Virus record (IMG/VR): IMGVR_UViG_2718217897_000009
Coordinates: 1 to 18,768 of that record
Length of the DNA: 18,768 nucleotides
Origin: a virus
Taxonomy: Duplodnaviria > Heunggongvirae > Uroviricota > Caudoviricetes
Strand: one strand, 5' to 3'
Of this stretch, positions 2,597 through 10,967 are shown in pieces. Within the stretch, counting starts at the first letter, position 1. Every line of letters begins with the position of its first letter. The notes below the pieces were generated by a model, which saw nothing but the letters and a program-made list of their open reading frames with translations, ran no database searches and was not told the origin of the DNA. The position numbers and the translations under genes are program-made.

Positions 2597-2719
2597 ATTT
2601 ACGAGATCTCCATATAGTTACCTAAAAACCATACGCCACCGCATAATGCGAAATGGCGGCATATGCCAGATGCTGACTTAACAAGCCTCAACAAACGGCA
2701 ACAGAGGAGTGTACCAAAA
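2597..2719. promoter_or_regulatory. Immunity-switch intergenic region with two short perfect palindromes (CGCATAATGCG at 2640-2650, GGCATATGCC at 2658-2667)
   Basis: Palindromes read directly from the sequence between the divergently placed repressor and Cox-position ORFs; candidate operator sites. Confidence 0.35.
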
Positions 2720-3043
2720 ATGACAGAACGACGAGATCTCCAACAAATCACGACTCATCAACATTGTCGTCAGTATCCGCTAGACGGGTATCTGGCTATG
2801 AATATTTGCAAGATGACGGCCCGGCAAATAAGCCGCATTCGAGACATGAGTTTGAGTGAGTTGCGCAAGCAAGAGTATGTATCCAGGGAAGAGTTTGCCT
2901 ATATCACTGGGCGCACTTTCAAAGCGACAGGAAACTACCTGGACCGCAATGAAGATCTTGTCTACAGGGAGTATGCAACACCTAACGCCGCATACCCGCC
3001 CAGACAGCCGAATCACGCAGCTCTGGCAGCGCCTGAGCCGTAA
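2720..3043 (+). CDS. Putative Cox/Apl-position early regulator (start ATG 2720 preceded by GAGGAG); family not recognised
   Basis: ORF divergent from the repressor in the position of P2 cox. RBS GAGGAG sits 10 nt upstream of the ATG. The C-terminal 20 residues are proline-rich and look like out-of-frame translation, so the 3' end is uncertain. Confidence 0.35.
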   Translation: MTERRDLQQITTHQHCRQYPLDGYLAMNICKMTARQISRIRDMSLSELRKQEYVSREEFAYITGRTFKATGNYLDRNEDLVYREYATPNAAYPPRQPNHAALAAPEP

Positions 3044-3371
3044 TCACGGCGTAAGCAGCACAGAGATCCGCCATAACCCGGTCGCCAGCTATCTGGAACA
3101 ACTGGGGGCATCAGACCCCGAAGCCGCCGCACGTCTGGCATCCACACTTCAGCAGGACCAGAACACCATGAAAACCCCCGTTACCGTGCTTTCTGACATG
3201 CTGCGCGCCATCCGTGACGCAGAGCACGCACAGAGAATCAGTGAAACCACTGAACGCGCCCACCGCAAAGCAGACCTGCTGCGGGGTAGCCTGACCAGTG
3301 GAAACAAAAAACAGACAGAAACGGGACTCACAAATCCCGTAAATGAGCAAAAAACGCGCCGCGATATATGA
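2973..3371 (+). CDS. Hypothetical ORF overlapping the 3' end of the Cox-position ORF in another frame; possible frameshifted continuation
   Basis: Frame 0 from about 3000 to 3371 shows coding-like codon usage (G-rich first position, ctg/gcc/cgt codons). Start is uncertain; the ATG at 2973 follows AGGGAG with too short a spacer. Confidence 0.2.
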   Translation: MQHLTPHTRPDSRITQLWQRLSRNHGVSSTEIRHNPVASYLEQLGASDPEAAARLASTLQQDQNTMKTPVTVLSDMLRAIRDAEHAQRISETTERAHRKADLLRGSLTSGNKKQTETGLTNPVNEQKTRRDI

Positions 3372-3447
3372 AGCGCGCACAAAACAGGCAAAAGCGGGAT
3401 TTAAAAATCCTGTAACCGATTAATTAATCAACATAAGGAAAAGCGAC
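3300..3447 (+). promoter_or_regulatory. Candidate parC-like centromere/promoter region upstream of parM
   Basis: Inverted repeat ACGGGA-N8-TCCCGT, palindrome GGATTTAAAAATCC and direct repeats AAATCC(C/T)GTAA lie upstream of the AAGGAA RBS of parM. In plasmid R1, parC lies immediately upstream of parM. Confidence 0.3.
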
Positions 3448-4407
3448 ATGAAAATTTGTATCGACGACGGCTCCACCAACATCAAGCTGGCATGGACTGA
3501 GAACGGCAAACGCCGCAACGCCATCAGCCCGAACAGCTTCAAGTCGGAATGGTCTGCGCCGTTCGGTGGCACGCAGCCCGCGAACTACATGCTTGATGGC
3601 GTGCGCTATGGTTTTGATCCGGTCAGCGATCGCTTTGTCCAGACGACCGACACGCAATACCAGTACAGCGATGTGAATGTAATTGCCATTCATCACGCGC
3701 TGGTCAAATCAGGCATCACACCACAGGAGGTGGATGTGGTTGTCACCCTGCCACTGAGCGAGTATTTCGATACAAACGCACAGCCGGACATGGCCAACAT
3801 CAACCGCAAAAAAGCGAACGTCATGCGCCCGGTGGAGTACCAGAACGGCGAAGCATTCACTATCCGTAACGTACGGGTTATGCCTGAATCCATTCCGGCT
3901 GGCTTTAAGGCACTGGCTGACATGAGTCCGTTTGAATCCCTGCTGATTGTGGATTTGGGCGGAACCACGCTGGATGTGGCAAAGGTTCAGGGGCAACTGG
4001 CAGGTATTAGCCAAGTGTTTTGCGATCCACACGTAGGCGTTTCTCTGATGGCCGATGCCGTACTGTCGGTGATGGCCACTAACGGTATGCGCACCAGTCA
4101 CCACATCGCCAATACCATTATCGAACATCGCCATGATGAAGCCTGGCTGCGCCAGCACATCCACAATGACGCGCATTACAACAGCCTGATGGCGGTTATT
4201 CGTGAAAAGGAAGAAACACTGAAACAACGCGTGATCCGCGCGCTGGCGGTTTTTTCGGGTTACGGGCGGGTGATGGTTGTCGGTGGCGGGGCGGAGATTG
4301 TGGCACCCGCTATCCGCGAAGCCTGCGGAGTTAATGCGACTTTCATCGCGGACGGGGTGCCACAGTTTGCTCTGGTTAATGGGCTGTACGCAATGAACAA
4401 GGAGTAA
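3448..4407 (+). CDS. parM: ParM/StbA-family actin-like segregation ATPase
   Basis: N-terminus MKICIDDGSTNIKLAW...ISPNSFKSEW and internal DLGGTTLD, VMPESIPAG and VVGGGAE motifs match plasmid R1 ParM/StbA as I remember it. Confidence 0.85.
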   Translation: MKICIDDGSTNIKLAWTENGKRRNAISPNSFKSEWSAPFGGTQPANYMLDGVRYGFDPVSDRFVQTTDTQYQYSDVNVIAIHHALVKSGITPQEVDVVVTLPLSEYFDTNAQPDMANINRKKANVMRPVEYQNGEAFTIRNVRVMPESIPAGFKALADMSPFESLLIVDLGGTTLDVAKVQGQLAGISQVFCDPHVGVSLMADAVLSVMATNGMRTSHHIANTIIEHRHDEAWLRQHIHNDAHYNSLMAVIREKEETLKQRVIRALAVFSGYGRVMVVGGGAEIVAPAIREACGVNATFIADGVPQFALVNGLYAMNKE

Positions 4408-4411
4408 ACCA

Positions 4412-4726
4412 ATGACGACACCAACCAGACGGATAAGTTTCTATCTGAAGCCCGCCGCCGTCAAGAGTGAACAGGAGGCGTGCAATTACCTCGATAGCCT
4501 GCCAGCCTCCGAACGCAGCCGCGCGCAACGCGCGGCCTTTCTGGCTGGGCTAGCACTCATAAAGCGCAACCCAGCATTTGCCTACTGGATGGCCGAATGG
4601 CCAGAGGACAACCTCCCCTTCAATACCGTTAGCATCAAGGAAACATACCAGGCTAATCAGCCTAGCGGAGTTGAATGCAATTTTTATAAAATAAAAAAGA
4701 ATATTCAGACCTTATTCCCAGAATAA
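4412..4726 (+). CDS. parR: ParR-family centromere-binding adaptor
   Basis: 104-aa protein RRISFYLKP...LDSLP.SERSRAQRAAFLAGLAL...LFPE resembles R1 ParR (RRTIAFKLNP...LDSIPQGERSRLNRAALTAGLAL...LFPKE); AAGGAG RBS; immediately downstream of parM. Confidence 0.75.
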   Translation: MTTPTRRISFYLKPAAVKSEQEACNYLDSLPASERSRAQRAAFLAGLALIKRNPAFAYWMAEWPEDNLPFNTVSIKETYQANQPSGVECNFYKIKKNIQTLFPE

Positions 4727-5691: not shown

Positions 5692-6189
5692 TTATTTGTT
5701 TTTCCGTAAAGGATTAGCTTTCCATCTTCTTACTAACCATTCGAATTCTTGATATGTAGTATCCGAATTAATGCTTTCTCTGATTGCTTTAATTAATGGC
5801 TCGGCAATATCATATGTCTCTACAACTGTTGTGTAAGATGTTCTTTTTATCATTTTTTCATCATAAATACCTTCACGAATACTTACAGCAACTCGCTCGT
5901 AAAAATTTAAAATATATTGAAATTTTCGACGCTCGGCCATTTCTTCATCTGTTATTGTGCAACCATCACAAGGAAAAACATAAGAACGAAATGATTTGCC
6001 TGAACGATGCACTTGTTTCAGGGTATGCAATGACTCTATATATTGCATATCTTGCCGACTCTCAAAAAGAAAGTTGGCCGTTTGAGTTTTTTTTGCGGTA
6101 CGCACATTGTAGATAATGGTTCCAATGGCAACCAAAACGCCAAGCAGAACAATAGCATTGCTGATGATTTGTAGTGTTATTGGGTTCAT
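5692..6189 (-). CDS. Hypothetical protein with a single N-terminal TM helix (165 aa), low-GC cargo
   Basis: ORF with hydrophobic N-terminus (IISNAIVLLGVLVAIGTIIY) followed by a charged soluble domain; same strand as and 39 bp upstream of the 280-aa gene. Confidence 0.6.
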   Translation of the reverse strand: MNPITLQIISNAIVLLGVLVAIGTIIYNVRTAKKTQTANFLFESRQDMQYIESLHTLKQVHRSGKSFRSYVFPCDGCTITDEEMAERRKFQYILNFYERVAVSIREGIYDEKMIKRTSYTTVVETYDIAEPLIKAIRESINSDTTYQEFEWLVRRWKANPLRKNK

Positions 6190-6214
6190 CCTATTTCATC
6201 CATAAAAAAGGCGG

Positions 6215-6225
6215 GGAGCAAATCC
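6215..6225. repeat. IS186 target-site duplication, left copy (GGAGCAAATCC)
   Basis: Identical 11-bp sequence directly flanks both ends of the element. Confidence 0.75.
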
Positions 6226-7564
6226 CATAAGCGCTAACTTAAGGGTTGAACCATCTGAAGAATGCGACGCCTCGGTGCCTCGTTAAGACGATGCCTCGCG
6301 TTCTTCAATTGCGTTTTGTAGGCTGTCAGGGATACTGTCCCACGAATGGCCACCTGTAAGCTCCAGATGACCATTTTTGTTATTCTCCACAACGAGTTAG
6401 TTCTTCTTTTCGGATCCGGCACTTCTGGGGGGGAAATCCAGCGATGGCTGGATTATGTCGTCAATTAAAAATGCGGCGAGTAGATTAGCAAATATCCACG
6501 CTTTCGCGAGTTCAGGTTCCTTTGCACGCAAAGCATCCAGGTGCAGCAAACTTTTGAGCCGCTTAAAAGCCAGTTCAATTTGCCATCGCAGACGGTAACA
6601 ATCAGCCACTTGCTCTGCTGAATATTCATCTTCCGGTAATGATGTTAGCAATAGCACATGGCCCGCTGCTTCCAGCGTTTCCGCCTGAACTACTCGTCCT
6701 TTTCGACGATTCTCGCTGAGCAGTCGGGTTTTACTGATTAATGCTTTTTCGGGAGGAAGTGATACGGCAATGAGACGTGCCGGAAAGGGAGCTCCGGCTT
6801 TTTTATTACCTGAATTGCCTATCATTACAGTGGTTTCACCGTTCTTACCGCAATCCAGCCCGCGCAGAAAACCCATCATGTCAAAGCGCATTCCTTCTGC
6901 AGTTAACCAGCGCAATCCTCGCCAGTGAACCCGGACGATATAATCAGCTTCTCCAAAAGCAAGTGAGCGGATACATTCGGGACGCGAACCGAATCCCCGG
7001 TCAGCAATGCGTATCTCGTCTGCCGTTTGCGCAAATCGGTCCAGCCGTTCAGCGTCTCTGCTGTCGGTTAGCTCAAAATCAGTGAACTGACAGGTATGAG
7101 GATCATATCCCATATGTAGTCGCCATTCAGCGCTGCCGCCCCCGGGCGCACTGATTGCTGTTCCATCGACAAGACGCAATCTCTTTCCGCTTGTACAACC
7201 CGTAACTGCGGCGCGTACAGCAAGTGTTTGTGCGGCAAGTATGCCAAACCAGTCGGCGGCATTCCGCAGCCGCTTCAGGAGAGCCACGTCAGATAATGTT
7301 GCAACGTCATGGAGCTGAGCCCATGCAGTGACTTCACGTAATGACATCCCCCCGGGGCCGTAAGCCAGCCCCAGACGTAGCAGAGTTGCAGCATCACGAA
7401 TTTCGCGGCGGCGGGTTAGAGCCCCGGCATTACGTGCCGAAGTATCCAGTTCTTCGGGCTTACCAATATGGGCCAGAATTGCTGACCAGTTATCGTGAGA
7501 GTAATTCATCGGCACGTTAAATCATATCAGGCGTAATACCACAACCCTTAAGTTAGCGCTTATG
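6226..7564 (-). mobile_element. IS186 (IS4 family), 1339 bp, perfect 23-bp terminal inverted repeats CATAAGCGCTAACTTAAGGGTTG
   Basis: Terminal inverted repeats at 6226-6248 and 7542-7564 read directly; the internal ORF matches the IS186 transposase; flanked by an 11-bp direct repeat. Confidence 0.9.
6397..7509 (-). CDS. IS186 transposase (DDE, IS4 family), 370 aa
   Basis: Translation MNYSHDNWSAILAHIGKPEELDTSARNAGALTRRREIRDAATLLRLGLAYGPGG... matches IS186 transposase over its full length as I remember it; the ORF track starts two codons earlier (MPMNY). Confidence 0.9.
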   Translation of the reverse strand: MNYSHDNWSAILAHIGKPEELDTSARNAGALTRRREIRDAATLLRLGLAYGPGGMSLREVTAWAQLHDVATLSDVALLKRLRNAADWFGILAAQTLAVRAAVTGCTSGKRLRLVDGTAISAPGGGSAEWRLHMGYDPHTCQFTDFELTDSRDAERLDRFAQTADEIRIADRGFGSRPECIRSLAFGEADYIVRVHWRGLRWLTAEGMRFDMMGFLRGLDCGKNGETTVMIGNSGNKKAGAPFPARLIAVSLPPEKALISKTRLLSENRRKGRVVQAETLEAAGHVLLLTSLPEDEYSAEQVADCYRLRWQIELAFKRLKSLLHLDALRAKEPELAKAWIFANLLAAFLIDDIIQPSLDFPPRSAGSEKKN

Positions 7565-8135: not shown

Positions 8136-9185
8136 TCAGGATATGGGCGGGGTATCCAGCAGTGCGTAAGGGTTAAAACGGATCACCTCTTCGCCCAGCC
8201 AGTCATTAACGTGCTTCATCGCCTCCATCACCGGCATCAGTTCGTTGATCGCAAACACTCTGGCCGCCTTCTCCACATCACCAAAAGAACCCTGCCCGCT
8301 GGGCATTGCGCCCATCAGTTGTGGTGGTACACGGTGAGCGGCCAGCACATCATCACGGGAGGCCGCCTTGACGTTCATGAACTCATCCCGGGCGGTGATC
8401 TGCTGGAATGGCAGGATTTGCACACCGTCCTTCCCGCCGTTCGGTGCCTGGAGTAGCAGGTTCTTGAATGCCCCACCGCCTCTTGCGCCCTGCAACGCTC
8501 TTTCGAGAGCCTGCATACTTTCGCGATCAACCTGTGCTGCCCCCACGTAAATGATGCAGCCTGCATGTGAACCGTTGTCATAGTAGAGTTTGCGGAAGCG
8601 ATCTGCCGAGTGCGACAGACTGGCAGACAACAGGCCACCGAGATATTCCGGCATTCCGTACATCTCCTGGTTGATGTCGGGGTTCAGCACATGGCAGACG
8701 CGCCCCTGACGGAACTCGTGGTCCTGCTCCCCCGTCTGCACAAACCAGTACACATCCGGCTCAACACCACGACGGACGTATTTTGCCAGCGCGTGCCGTA
8801 GTTCCAGTTTTCCGCCCAGCCTGTTGGTGCGCAGTTCAAGAAACGCATTCCCGAAGACAAACCAGTCCAGCGCAAAGGCGGAGAACGCCTGCCGGGAGAG
8901 CAGCCGGTGCGGAATGAAGCAGCCCAGTATGGCATTCCGCTTGAAGTACAGCGCCGACTGGTGCCACGAGGTCTGCCGGGATGCCCGCGCCAGTCCGTAC
9001 CAGTCAACGGGCGTTTCGTAGTATCTGCCGTTACTCAGGCAGTATGCGTTATCCAGCAGGTCGAGTGCGTGCGCATCGTAAGGGCCGTCGAACGAGAAGG
9101 CGCTTAACGACGGCTGGCGGCGCAGTGCCTCTGCCAGCGCCACGCCGTCATCGCGGCGCGAATATTTTCGTTTTTGTTTTTTCAT
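8136..9185 (-). CDS. Phage portal protein (P2 gpQ-like), 349 aa
   Basis: Size and position match P2 Q (344 aa); start ATG overlaps the stop of the upstream terminase ORF (ATGA), as expected for the P-Q arrangement. The family assignment is a recollection-level call. Confidence 0.7.
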   Translation of the reverse strand: MKKQKRKYSRRDDGVALAEALRRQPSLSAFSFDGPYDAHALDLLDNAYCLSNGRYYETPVDWYGLARASRQTSWHQSALYFKRNAILGCFIPHRLLSRQAFSAFALDWFVFGNAFLELRTNRLGGKLELRHALAKYVRRGVEPDVYWFVQTGEQDHEFRQGRVCHVLNPDINQEMYGMPEYLGGLLSASLSHSADRFRKLYYDNGSHAGCIIYVGAAQVDRESMQALERALQGARGGGAFKNLLLQAPNGGKDGVQILPFQQITARDEFMNVKAASRDDVLAAHRVPPQLMGAMPSGQGSFGDVEKAARVFAINELMPVMEAMKHVNDWLGEEVIRFNPYALLDTPPIS

Positions 9186-9751
9186 CAGAACTCAATCACC
9201 CGCATTCCTGTTGCACCGTCCTCATCGCCCAGCGGCTCGTTAATGACGGCAAGCATGGTTGCCCACGCGAGGTCGCCGTGGTTTACGCCGCGTGTGCGGT
9301 CTGTTTCATACGTTATTGCCCCGCCCGCCGTTTTTGCCTTGCGCACAGCGTTGAATGCCCTGACCAGCTCACGTTCGCCCCGGTCATACTCCCAGCGCCC
9401 CGCACGAATAATCTGCAGCATCTTCAGCACAAGCGCGCGTTTGGATGCCAGCGTGAACGTGTACGGCACGGCGGCAGGCCAGAACCGCCGCACTATCTGG
9501 TACACTGCCTCACCGTTACCGCCGGTCACGTCGATACCAATGTGCTGGACGTTGTATTTGTGCGTGAACTGCTCAATCACACGGGCCTGCTCTTCAAATT
9601 CCAGCCCCTGCACCTGCAACGTCTCCACCGTGCGGAATTTGCCGCCCCTGACGGCAGGCGGTACAACAACAGACAGCGCCCCGCTGACGTAGCAGGAAAC
9701 AGGGGGATTTGCCCCTGTTTTTTTGTTCAGAATGCAGCCTTCACCATTCAT
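9185..9751 (-). pseudogene. 5'-truncated terminase large subunit (C-terminal nuclease domain only; ATPase domain missing)
   Basis: 188-aa ORF with terminase-nuclease-like features (IGIDVTGG ... VNHGDLAWATMLAV near the C-terminus) but no ATPase domain. P2 gpP is about 590 aa. The first ~18 codons overlap a hairpin/T-run and a tail-gene remnant, so the annotated start is probably spurious. Confidence 0.55.
9696..9723 (+). terminator. Rho-independent terminator-like hairpin (AAACAGGGG/CCCCTGTTT stem, T7 run)
   Basis: Inverted repeat followed by TTTTTTT on the plus strand. Confidence 0.45.
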
Positions 9752-9850
9752 CTCTAATCGTATTCAGTAATTCGCCCGCAGAAACAAACTAAAATTCATC
9801 CCCCGCATCACGCCACTGAAAGCAGACGGTAAACTCCAGATTTTCAAACC
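9726..9850 (-). pseudogene. Diverged remnant of the 3' end of a gpU-like tail gene
   Basis: About 70% nucleotide similarity to the 3' end of the intact U gene at 10508-10640, including the shared TTCAGAATGCAGCC and CTGAAAGC blocks; the minus-strand translation (..EFTVCFQWRDAGDEF*FVSAGELLN..) parallels the U C-terminus (..EFSISFQRCDEDMRERFQSASAGELLN..) but contains a stop. Confidence 0.4.
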
Positions 9851-10171
9851 AGCGTCAGAAGTATTTAAATGGCACCAGATGTAATATGCAGGCGATTAAT
9901 ATGGTGTGCTTAAAGATCATAAAAGCGGGCAACATTAAAACTCCGGGCTGTGTAAATTACCGCCACTCATAATCAGAGATGAAAACAGAATTAAACTGGC
10001 GGAGTGGATTGTATACATAAAATAAGTTCAGTTGTTGACTTTCACTTCCGTGAATTGATGAAGGTTATTACAATACATCGGTATGATCTCTCCTCCTTAA
10101 AAGGGAGGACTTTTCAGAACGCAGAAATTATTTATAATCCCGTAGTGTTCTATACATGCAAACATTCTTTT

Positions 10172-10195
10172 CCCGCCCCGTGCGGGCTTTTTTTT
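10172..10195 (+). terminator. Terminator-like hairpin (CCCGC/GCGGG stem, T8 run)
   Basis: Read directly; preceded about 35 bp upstream by a perfect TATAAT (10133-10138). Confidence 0.4.
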
Positions 10196-10285
10196 GCCGC
10201 AAAGATACAGTAACAAACAAAATTGTAATCATGGCAATCAAAACACGAGAAACATTTTCAGCAATTGCAATAACAAATTAAAATA

Positions 10286-10315
10286 TTGCAATTGACAATC
10301 CCCGCTTAATATAAT
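10286..10315 (+). promoter_or_regulatory. Sigma70-like promoter (-35 TTGCAA, 18-bp spacer, -10 TATAAT)
   Basis: Hexamers read directly; a terminator lies about 45 bp downstream, giving a predicted transcript of about 60 nt. Confidence 0.35.
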
Positions 10316-10359
10316 CCCTTCCGGAACATAGAACATTAAATCTTCACACAATGCATGTT

Positions 10360-10383
10360 GCCCTCTTTATGAGGGCTTTTTTT
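10360..10383 (+). terminator. Rho-independent terminator (GCCCTC/GAGGGC stem, T7 run)
   Basis: Perfect 6-bp GC-rich stem, 5-nt loop, TTTTTTT. Confidence 0.5.
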
Positions 10384-10401
10384 ATTTCCAGAATATCACC
10401 A

Positions 10402-10430
10402 TTGCCATCATCGGGCGATTTATATATAGT
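10402..10430 (+). promoter_or_regulatory. Sigma70-like promoter (-35 TTGCCA, 17-bp spacer, -10 TATAGT)
   Basis: Hexamers read directly; a terminator lies about 45 bp downstream. Confidence 0.3.
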
Positions 10431-10476
10431 CAGAATGTATTGACAACATTTTGCTTCTTTTCCATGAAGGCCATAA

Positions 10477-10506
10477 GGGAGTGCTTTTTACACTCCCTCT
10501 TTTTTT
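10477..10506 (+). terminator. Rho-independent terminator (GGGAGTG/CACTCCC stem, T7 run) abutting the U stop codon on the opposite strand
   Basis: Perfect 7-bp stem, 7-nt loop, T-run; oriented to stop plus-strand transcription before it runs antisense into the tail operon. Confidence 0.5.
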
Positions 10507-10508
10507 AT

Positions 10509-10967
10509 TCAGAATGCAGCCACAGGCATTTTGTCTTTAAGCGCGTTCAGCAGTTCGCCCGCAGAAGCAGACTGAAACCGCTCTCTCATATCCTCATCAC
10601 ACCGCTGAAAGCTGATGGAAAACTCAATCTTTTTTGCCTTTCCGTAACGATCCAGCTCGGAGCGGGTGGTCTGTAATCCTGTAATCACGTACATTCCGTA
10701 AATCTGCCCCGTGCCATCAATCAGCGGCCAGGGACATCCGGTGTAGGCCTGGGTGTTCAGCAGTGTCAGTGACACCTCACCACCGGTAATTTCCGGGTAC
10801 AACAGACCGGACAGCGTGATCTGATCGTCACCTGCGCCAATATACTGCCAGGCCGCAGAGCGGTTAATGCGCTCATTTTTCACATGTCGCCATGTTTTGC
10901 TCTGCTGGATCTGCTGATGCGGAAGCGTTTTCAGCTCAAACACAAACATGCCAAAAATCATCATCAT
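10509..10967 (-). CDS. Tail protein gpU-like (152 aa)
   Basis: Triple-Met start (MMMIFGMFVFELK...) preceded by AAGGAGA; size and position (immediately after the tape-measure gene) match P2 U. Confidence 0.8.
   Translation of the reverse strand: MMMIFGMFVFELKTLPHQQIQQSKTWRHVKNERINRSAAWQYIGAGDDQITLSGLLYPEITGGEVSLTLLNTQAYTGCPWPLIDGTGQIYGMYVITGLQTTRSELDRYGKAKKIEFSISFQRCDEDMRERFQSASAGELLNALKDKMPVAAF

What the first reader, a model, noticed from the sequence alone, without database searches (positions are those of the whole stretch)
9851..10508. AT-rich island carrying a tandem array of promoter/terminator mini-units (candidate small RNAs) with structure-preserving stem changes
Between the truncated terminase and the U gene there is no convincing protein ORF. 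Instead there are at least three plus-strand units, each a sigma70-like promoter or perfect -10 followed 40-50 nt later by a GC stem-loop and a T7-8 run (terminators at 10172-10195, 10360-10383, 10477-10506; a similar hairpin at 9696-9723). Two units share the extended -10 TATAATCCC, and several share an AACATT motif. The stems differ in sequence (CCCGC/GCGGG, GCCCTC/GAGGGC, GGGAGTG/CACTCCC, CAGGGG/CCCCTG) yet keep the hairpin plus U-tract architecture, the pattern expected for diverged paralogous structured RNAs or repeated terminator modules. Predicted transcripts are about 50-70 nt and would end just before running antisense into the tail operon.
Basis: seen in the sequence. Interest (0 to 1): 0.65.

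Follow-up and report, generated by a model that had tools for sequence, protein, structure and literature searches.

The report
Three orphan promoter-terminator cassettes in prophage
An AT-rich gap between two converging tail-gene operons of a decayed P2-family prophage of E. coli holds a dead tail-fibre-assembly gene plus three conserved promoter-to-terminator cassettes with no protein-coding potential; they are plausible but unproven small-RNA genes, of moderate interest.

Summary
On the + strand there are three sigma-70-like promoters (10/12 matches), each followed 34-46 nt after its -10 hexamer by a GC hairpin and a T7-8 run. A fourth terminator lies at 9696-9723. Given the terminators, the joint chance of such promoters is about 1e-5.

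The interpretation needs correcting in three ways.
- The left part (9851-10126) is a decayed tail-fibre-assembly gene, and 9724-9850 is a remnant of a second gpU 3' end.
- The units are not paralogues. They share only TATAATCCC and generic terminator tails, so the differing stems are not compensatory changes.
- T1 is the original terminator of the tail-fibre operon, and T3 is a terminator that all relatives examined keep next to the U stop.

The block occurs as one copy in 72 of 5426 complete E. coli genomes, always with this U allele, and was found nowhere else. Across 14 variants the three -10 hexamers are invariant and T1/T2 nearly so. Inter-unit spacer varies like U third codon positions (pi 0.12). 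No ORF is conserved and Rfam has no match.

Best reading: ORF-less, moron-like cassettes making RNAs of about 51, 62 and 70 nt, whose terminators also shield the tail operon. Expression is untested.

The parts
9185..9685 (-). Context: truncated terminase large subunit. The deletion junction with the island is at about 9685.
   Evidence: Pfam Terminase_6C, E 3.8e-30. RefSeq annotates it as a pseudogene missing its N-terminus. Intact relatives align only from 9685 rightwards.
9696..9723 (+). T0: intrinsic terminator of the replacement tail-fibre module (stem 9699-9719, then T-run). It is a positional homologue of T3.
   Evidence: -17.1 kcal/mol, z -3.8. In intact prophage SCU-176 it follows the 94-aa gene after the tail fibre. 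Its tail plus the following 14 nt are 93% identical to the T3 tail plus the U stop region (family D2).
9724..9850 (-). Remnant of the 3' end of a second gpU gene (a recombination scar).
   Evidence: Local alignment to 10507-10634 scores 74 against a null of 15.2 +/- 2.4. BLAST gives 72% over 139 nt, E 2e-14. Repeats D3 and D4.
9851..10126 (+). Decayed tail-fibre 3' end and tail-fibre-assembly (tfa) pseudogene with an internal deletion.
   Evidence: 9855-9941 is 81% identical to the P2 H/G junction. 9960-10126 aligns with the annotated tfa of TUM9803 and with the intact 187-aa tfa (Pfam Caudo_TAP) of strain 135, whose stop maps to about 10126.
10111..10138 (+). P1: sigma-70-like promoter, TTTTCA-16-TATAAT (TTTACA, 11/12, in six of the 14 variants aligned). 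It overlaps the end of tfa.
   Evidence: The -10 is invariant in 14 variants.
10145..10195 (+). Predicted RNA1 (~51 nt). Its 5' part is unstructured (…CAUGCAAACAUUCUUUU), followed by T1 (stem 10172-10186, T8 10188-10195). T1 is also the tail-fibre operon terminator.
   Evidence: T1 pi = 0.000 and body pi = 0.088, against a neutral value of about 0.12. T1 lies 46 nt after the tfa stop in strain 135.
10196..10285 (+). Inter-unit spacer, evolving at about the neutral rate.
   Evidence: pi 0.124 against 0.122 for U third codon positions.
10286..10315 (+). P2: TTGCAA-18-TATAAT. The TTG of the -35 and the whole -10 are conserved; the spacer sequence is hypervariable.
   Evidence: -10 pi 0, spacer pi 0.296.
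10322..10383 (+). Predicted RNA2 (~62 nt). It has a variable 5' end, a conserved core (AUUAAAUCUUCACACAAUGCAUG) and T2 (stem 10360-10376, T7 10377-10383).
   Evidence: Core pi 0.042, T2 pi 0.011, 5' end pi 0.254.
10402..10430 (+). P3: TTGCCA-17-TATAGT. The spacer is unusually conserved.
   Evidence: -10 pi 0, spacer pi 0.021.
10437..10506 (+). Predicted RNA3 (~70 nt), ending in T3 (stem 10476-10498, T-run to 10506), 2 nt before the U stop codon.
   Evidence: -16.2 kcal/mol, z -2.8. A G:C to C:G flip in the T3 stem occurs in TUM9803 and strain 135. A terminator of this orientation next to the U stop is present in all relatives examined.
10509..10967 (-). Context: gpU tail gene, the last gene of the convergent tail operon.
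   Evidence: Pfam Phage_P2_GpU, E 7e-40. Annotation.

Best explanation
The interval is the accessory-cargo slot of a P88-like (Xuanwuvirus-type, P2-family) prophage. It lies between the tail-fibre operon (+) and the convergent FI-FII-E-T-U tail operon (-). Its left part is debris: a stub of a second gpU and a decayed tail-fibre-assembly gene, left by a tail-fibre module swap. Its right 400 nt carries three independent, co-oriented transcription units without ORFs. Each is a near-consensus sigma-70 promoter, then 34-46 nt from the -10 hexamer to an intrinsic terminator with a 7-8 U tail. I infer that host RNA polymerase transcribes them in the lysogen without phage activators. The products would be RNAs of about 51, 62 and 70 nt with an unstructured 5'/central segment, a terminator hairpin and a poly-U tail, the layout of Hfq-type base-pairing sRNAs. 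They would act in trans on host or competing-phage mRNAs. The same terminators have a second, structural job. T1 ends the tail-fibre operon, and T2 and T3 back it up, so that no rightward transcription runs antisense into U. Shown: the sequence features, their non-random arrangement, their orthologous conservation and the absence of a conserved ORF. Inferred: transcription, RNA ends, Hfq dependence and any target.
For: Non-random promoter-terminator pairing has a joint P of about 1e-5, and these are 3 of the 4 best promoter matches in the window. Across 14 orthologous variants all three -10 hexamers are invariant (0 of 18 columns vary, against 36% of columns in the neighbouring spacer). T1 and T2 have 3 variable columns of 48. 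Unit bodies have pi 0.04-0.09, against 0.122 for U third codon positions and 0.124 for the inter-unit spacer. P2 keeps the TTG of its -35, the -10 hexamer and 17-18 nt spacing while the spacer sequence is replaced. A compensatory G:C to C:G change occurs in T3. T-run length differences shift the frame of the small + strand ORFs that span T1 and T2, and none of the + strand AUGs has a Shine-Dalgarno sequence. The island has 36% GC in a 53-62% context. The slot carries different cargo in relatives: an invertase cassette, a glycosyltransferase, or a 140-nt structured element. The units survive in the degraded prophage of the window, where tfa itself has decayed. RNA1 has a UUCUUUU tract directly before its terminator hairpin and a U8 tail, which from my own knowledge of Ishikawa et al. 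2012 is the Hfq-binding module. Precedent: Pas sRNAs sit in intergenic regions next to tail/capsid genes of lambdoid prophages.
Against: There are no expression data of any kind. Rfam gives no hit. No convincing target was found: duplex scans of the window and of an intact relative gave only background. Only about 4-5 independent allele lineages exist, all within E. coli, so the conservation statistics rest on few events and mosaic recombination could mimic them. The predicted 5' end of RNA2, where a seed is usually found, is the most variable part. Conservation of T1 and T3 is expected from their terminator role alone. Parts of the island clearly are recombination scars.
Confidence: 0.5

Rival explanations
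1. Non-functional relics. The cassettes are promoters and terminators left behind after cargo genes were deleted, and/or serial recombination scars at the U 3' end. They look conserved only because the lineage is young.
For: T0 plus 9724-9850 is demonstrably such a scar. The tfa gene in the island is decayed. 10431-10460 weakly resembles the U 3' end (24/32, P about 0.02), as does 10113-10124 (P about 0.04). The slot holds deletable cargo in relatives. The block is confined to 72 genomes with few alleles.
Against: Diversity inside the units is about half that of adjacent spacer and U synonymous sites in the same sequences. It is zero in all three -10 hexamers. Decay would not spare exactly the promoter hexamers and hairpins. 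No variant with a gene between a promoter and its terminator, or with a partial block, exists in 5426 genomes.
Confidence: 0.25
2. A terminator stack or insulator acting only at the DNA/transcription level. Three back-to-back terminators protect the tail operon from convergent tail-fibre transcription. The promoters serve collision or interference with read-through from U, or are incidental, and the short RNAs have no function of their own.
For: Every relative examined has a terminator of this orientation next to the U stop. T1 sits 46 nt after the tfa stop. No intrinsic terminator exists on the minus strand after U, so opposing promoters could limit antisense read-through into the tail-fibre genes.
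Against: Relatives manage with one terminator. This does not explain the invariant -10 hexamers or the conserved unstructured RNA bodies. Chance promoters are unlikely.
Confidence: 0.15
3. One reading: a tandem array of paralogous structured sRNAs that arose by duplication and diverged with compensatory stem changes.
For: The architecture is shared, along with TATAATCCC in units 1 and 2 (u1 vs u2 local score 23 against a null of 14.3, P about 0.002) and recurrent AACATT.
Against: u1/u3 and u2/u3 are not more similar than shuffles. BLAST finds only 9-11 nt matches. The shared parts are the promoter -10/discriminator and the generic terminator tail. AACATT fails multiple-testing correction and is not conserved in unit 2.
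Confidence: 0.05
4. The units encode very small proteins or type I toxins.
For: Mechanical ORFs of 30-41 aa start at 10156 and 10351, and short ORFs lie on the minus strand.
Against: The + strand ORFs run through the terminators, lack Shine-Dalgarno sequences, and are frame-shifted by T-run length differences between variants. The 37-aa minus-strand ORF at 10238-10351 lies largely in the variable, indel-bearing P2 spacer / RNA2 5' region; the other short minus-strand ORFs were not compared across the variants.
Confidence: 0.03

Closest known systems
Morons of temperate phages (Hendrix/Juhala definition; for example the P2 Z/fun-orf30 'TO region' between G and FI) - recalled from my own knowledge
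   Same: Extra AT-rich DNA sits between two late-gene blocks, with its own sigma-70 promoter and intrinsic terminator. It is absent or different in related phages and occupies the slot next to the tail-fibre-assembly gene. That slot holds a glycosyltransferase in phage Chuche and an invertase cassette in P88.
   Different: There is no ORF; the cargo would be RNA only. Three cassettes sit in a row. Here the slot borders U rather than FI, because the FI-U block is inverted relative to P2.
Prophage-encoded Hfq-type sRNAs of E. coli (DicF, IpeX, AsxR/AgvB, PasA-D, svsR)
   Same: Short transcripts from intergenic prophage DNA with their own promoter and a Rho-independent terminator. Pas genes lie next to tail/capsid genes.
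   Different: All of those are in lambdoid prophages and are experimentally detected. There is no sequence or Rfam relationship here. These units lie in a P2-family prophage and are untested.
Lambda OOP RNA (77-nt constitutive antisense RNA) - from my own knowledge
   Same: A tiny transcription unit with its own promoter and terminator, pointing against a convergently transcribed phage gene.
   Different: OOP overlaps the 3' end of cII and acts in cis. RNA3 stops 2 nt before the U stop codon, so it can be antisense only to a U 3' UTR.
Conserved ~140-nt non-coding element at the same tfa|U junction in Enterobacter phage phiT5282H and prophages of 8 other genera
   Same: Same position and orientation, ending in a terminator next to the U stop, with no ORF.
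   Different: No detectable sequence similarity to the window's units. It is a single, long, highly structured element (-39.8 kcal/mol consensus) rather than three short cassettes.

Membership tests
Any Rfam 15 RNA family | Covariance-model score at or above the family's gathering threshold | tested here: not met
   There were 0 hits at gathering over the whole window. With permissive settings the best hit is SpF51, 22.8 bits against a threshold of 50, E 0.16, driven by the terminator hairpin.
Hfq-type trans-acting sRNA | Own promoter and a Rho-independent terminator with a long U tail | tested here: met
   Promoters score 10/12. Hairpins are followed by T8, T7 and T7.
Hfq-type trans-acting sRNA | U-rich tract just upstream of the terminator hairpin (Hfq-binding module) | tested here: inconclusive
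   RNA1 has UUCUUUU directly before the stem. RNA3 has it 15 nt upstream. RNA2 has only UGUU.
Hfq-type trans-acting sRNA | A discrete stable transcript that is Hfq-bound | not testable with these tools
   No expression or CLIP data were available. Literature searches found nothing for this locus.
Hfq-type trans-acting sRNA | A conserved seed with an identifiable target | tested here: inconclusive
   Conserved single-stranded cores exist. Duplex scans of the window and of an intact relative gave only background energies. The host genome could not be scanned.
Phage moron | Own promoter and terminator, deviant base composition, and location between genes that are adjacent in relatives | tested here: met
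   tfa and U are about 150 nt apart in phiT5282H and many genera.
Phage moron | Carries a protein-coding gene expressed from the prophage | tested here: not met
   No conserved ORF. Expression is not testable.
Tandem paralogous sRNA array (OmrA/B, PrrF1/2 type) | Alignable sequence homology between the copies | tested here: not met
   Only TATAATCCC and terminator tails are shared.
Cis-antisense RNA to the convergent gene (OOP type) | The transcript overlaps the coding region of the opposite-strand gene | tested here: not met
   The T3 U-run ends at 10506 and the U stop codon is at 10509-10511.
Repetitive extragenic / miniature mobile element | Many dispersed copies per genome | tested here: not met
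   The median is one place per genome, always at this locus and always the whole block. None occur on plasmids.

The most novel reading that the evidence does not exclude
The three cassettes are 'RNA morons': ORF-less accessory transcription units that a P2-family prophage keeps under purifying selection. They would express three unrelated small RNAs in the lysogen, which reprogramme host genes or block competing phages. Allelic replacement of the RNA2 5' end would reflect changing targets. Together with the unrelated 140-nt structured element at the same junction in nine other genera, this would make the tfa|U gap of Xuanwuvirus/Novemvirus-type phages a dedicated slot for non-coding RNA cargo.
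Probability: 0.3. Interest if true: 0.55.

Novelty: new member of a known kind. Interest (0 to 1): 0.38.

Why it matters
Prophage-encoded sRNAs are known almost only from lambdoid phages. If these are real, they would be among the first from P2-family prophages. They would also show that moron slots can carry RNA-only cargo. The lineage occurs in clinical E. coli, including an ST131 isolate, so such RNAs could affect host physiology or phage resistance. If they are not real, the locus is still a tidy example of how tail-fibre module swaps leave nested scars, and of a conserved guard terminator between convergent late operons.

Tried and rejected
- **Rfam.** Gathering and permissive thresholds on the window and on nine related loci gave nothing relevant.
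- **Homologues outside E. coli.**
  - 43 loci encoding gpU relatives from other genera have no similarity to the island.
  - The phage collection matched only the P2/SfMu H-G junction.
  - Plasmids gave no match.
  - Viral contigs gave five loci and the metagenome scan five; all of them align to the window at 84-100% identity, like the E. coli variants already in hand. A sixth metagenome hit was a chance 20-mer in unrelated DNA.
- **Invertase relic.** I tested whether unit 3 is a leftover of the P88 invertase cassette. There is no similarity to the P88 gix site, promoter or terminator, and no gix-like core in the island.
- **Target search.** RNA duplex scanning of the window and an intact relative returned only the antisense self-hits and background.
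- **Small-protein reading.** Rejected for the + strand ORFs, because they run through the terminators and T-run length differences shift their frames; the one minus-strand ORF checked lies in variable, indel-bearing sequence.
- **Mobile-repeat reading.** Rejected because there is a single copy per genome.
- **AACATT motif.** Not significant after correction for multiple testing.
- **Literature.** Searches found no report of sRNAs at this locus.

Full report
**Context.** The window is a degraded P2-family prophage of E. coli lying between glsA and copA. It is identical in 10 complete genomes. The flagged interval lies between a truncated terminase (Pfam Terminase_6C) and gpU (Pfam Phage_P2_GpU), the last gene of a minus-strand tail operon.

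In intact relatives such as SCU-176 (94% identical, 57 genomes) the same island sits between the plus-strand tail-fibre genes and the convergent U-T-E-FII-FI operon. The nearest named phages are P88 and other Xuanwuvirus members, with about 77% gpU identity.

- Four plus-strand intrinsic terminators lie at 9702-9723, 10172-10195, 10360-10383 and 10476-10506.
- Three plus-strand sigma-70-like promoters with 10/12 matches lie at 10111-10138, 10286-10315 and 10402-10430.
- Those three are among the four best promoter matches in the whole window.
- I held the terminators fixed and shuffled the 110 nt upstream of each. A promoter of that quality, ending 25-75 nt upstream, appears in 1.6%, 3.1% and 2.3% of shuffles, so about 1e-5 jointly.
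- The island has 36% GC against 53-62% in the flanks.

- 9724-9850 is a remnant of the 3' end of a second gpU. Its local alignment score to the real U end is 74, against 15.2 +/- 2.4 for shuffles.
- T0 and its tail are the counterpart of T3 and its tail (93% over 27 nt).
- 9855-9941 matches the P2 H/G junction and encodes a tail-fibre-assembly N-terminus.
- 9960-10126 aligns to the C-terminal part of tfa genes. That gene is partly preserved in TUM9803 and SCU-172 and fully intact (187 aa, Pfam Caudo_TAP) in strain 135.
- In strain 135 the tfa stop lies 8 nt before the unit-1 TATAAT, and T1 lies 46 nt after the stop.

So T1 is the original terminator of the tail-fibre operon. In the window/SCU-176 sub-lineage a newer tail-fibre module was inserted upstream, bringing its own terminator (T0) and a stub of donor U. 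The old tfa then decayed.

**The units are not paralogues.** Repeat finding, short-word BLAST and local alignment with shuffles detect no similarity between units. The only exceptions are TATAATCCC (units 1 and 2) and the generic G+C/T-run ends. The different stems are therefore different terminators, not compensatory evolution of one ancestral hairpin.

AACATT occurs five times on the plus strand. However, 22% of shuffles contain some hexamer at that frequency, and the unit-2 copy is not conserved.

**Distribution.**
- The 400-nt block occurs in 72 of 5426 complete E. coli genomes. It is always complete, always one copy at this locus, and always linked to this U allele.
- It is absent from 43 loci encoding gpU relatives in other genera.
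- It is absent from the phage collection and from plasmids.
- Viral-contig and metagenome scans turned up only loci that align to the window at 84-100% identity, like the E. coli variants already in hand.

**Evidence for constraint.** I aligned 14 distinct variants from 10100 to the end of U and computed nucleotide diversity (pi) for each feature.

| Feature | pi |
|---|---|
| U third codon positions | 0.122 |
| Inter-unit spacer 10196-10285 | 0.124 |
| All three -10 hexamers | 0 |
| T1 | 0.000 |
| T2 | 0.011 |
| T3 | 0.064 |
| RNA1 body | 0.088 |
| RNA2 core | 0.042 |
| RNA3 body | 0.074 |

None of the 18 columns in the -10 hexamers varies, against 36% variable columns in the spacer. P2 keeps the TTG of its -35, the -10 hexamer and a 17-18 nt spacing while the spacer sequence itself is replaced (pi 0.30). 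T3 shows a G:C to C:G flip in two variants.

The small + strand ORFs run through the terminators and are frame-shifted by T-run length differences, so none is conserved.

There are caveats. Only four or five independent allele lineages exist, phage mosaicism can create sharp identity boundaries, and the terminators would be conserved for their own sake.

**The slot.** The tfa|U junction carries different cargo in related phages:
- an invertible tail-fibre segment plus DNA invertase in P88 and phage 503458;
- a 36% GC segment with a glycosyltransferase in phage Chuche;
- a conserved, strongly structured, ORF-less element of about 140 nt in Enterobacter phage phiT5282H and in prophages of eight other genera.

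In all relatives examined, a terminator pointing against U sits right at the U stop. T3 therefore has a conserved architectural role.

**Interpretation.** The best-supported reading is that units 1-3 are ORF-less, moron-like transcription units. Host RNA polymerase would produce RNAs of about 51, 62 and 70 nt with an unstructured segment, a terminator hairpin and a U7-8 tail. That is the layout of Hfq-type sRNAs. The terminators would also insulate the tail operon from convergent transcription.

Transcription, RNA ends, chaperone binding and targets are all inferred. A duplex scan found no convincing target within the phage, and Rfam has no related family.

The main rival is that the cassettes are relics of deleted cargo and of repeated recombination at the U end. 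The island demonstrably contains such scars, and the RNA3 5' part weakly resembles the U end (P about 0.02). That rival does not explain why diversity is lowest exactly in the promoter hexamers and hairpins. A pure insulator role, paralogous duplication and small proteins are less likely.

**Verdict.** These are new, untested candidates of a known kind (prophage sRNA or moron) in a narrow lineage, of moderate interest.

Noticed in passing
L013:3500-3640 (-), likewise L016, L019, L020, L015, L034, L018, L024:4700-4840, L067:3490-3645; a shorter form in L006, L009, L036: A conserved ORF-less element of about 140 nt fills the gap between the tail-fibre-assembly (or invertase) stop and the gpU stop. 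It occurs in Enterobacter phage phiT5282H and in prophages of Enterobacter, Kosakonia, Izhakiella, Mixta, Erwinia, Rosenbergiella, Trabulsiella, Serratia and Symbiopectobacterium. Its core reads ATCGAGTACnGTCATTTTTAACGGTGCTGCAGCACnGTCAGTTATGGCGG and it ends in a terminator next to U. The consensus fold is -39.8 kcal/mol with little covariation, and Rfam has no match. It may be an unrecognised phage RNA or a protein-binding site.
   Followed up: partly
window 9685-9850: A nested recombination scar. The terminator T0 plus 127 nt of a second gpU 3' end sit immediately right of the deletion junction with the truncated terminase. This shows that a tail-fibre module was swapped in together with a stub of the donor's U gene.
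   Followed up: yes
window 10292-10334: The P2 spacer and the first ~13 nt of predicted RNA2 are about twice as diverse (pi 0.25-0.30) as synonymous sites of U. The flanking promoter hexamers and the RNA 3' half are near-invariant. Each of the three 5'-end alleles can pair with the conserved AUGCAUG just before T2. There are too few alleles to test.
   Followed up: partly
window 10384-10424: The P3 spacer and the 18 nt upstream are much more conserved (pi 0.02-0.07) than a promoter spacer needs to be. This could be a regulator-binding site overlapping P3.
   Followed up: no
window 10100-10510, minus strand: No intrinsic terminator follows gpU on the minus strand anywhere in the island. It is unclear how the FI-U tail operon transcript ends, and whether it runs antisense into the tail-fibre genes in intact relatives.
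   Followed up: no
window 5692-7515 and 2663-4726: The degraded prophage carries an IS421 (IS4-like) transposase insertion, a ParM/partition-protein pair and a DUF4760 gene between the replication-gene remnant and the portal gene. The tail sheath has an internal stop and the methyltransferase near copA is a pseudogene (RefSeq annotation).
   Followed up: no
L002:18576-18716: The intact relative in SCU-176 carries a Hok/Gef-family toxin gene and a DUF3800 gene near ogr, at the prophage end. The window's degraded copy lacks them.
   Followed up: no
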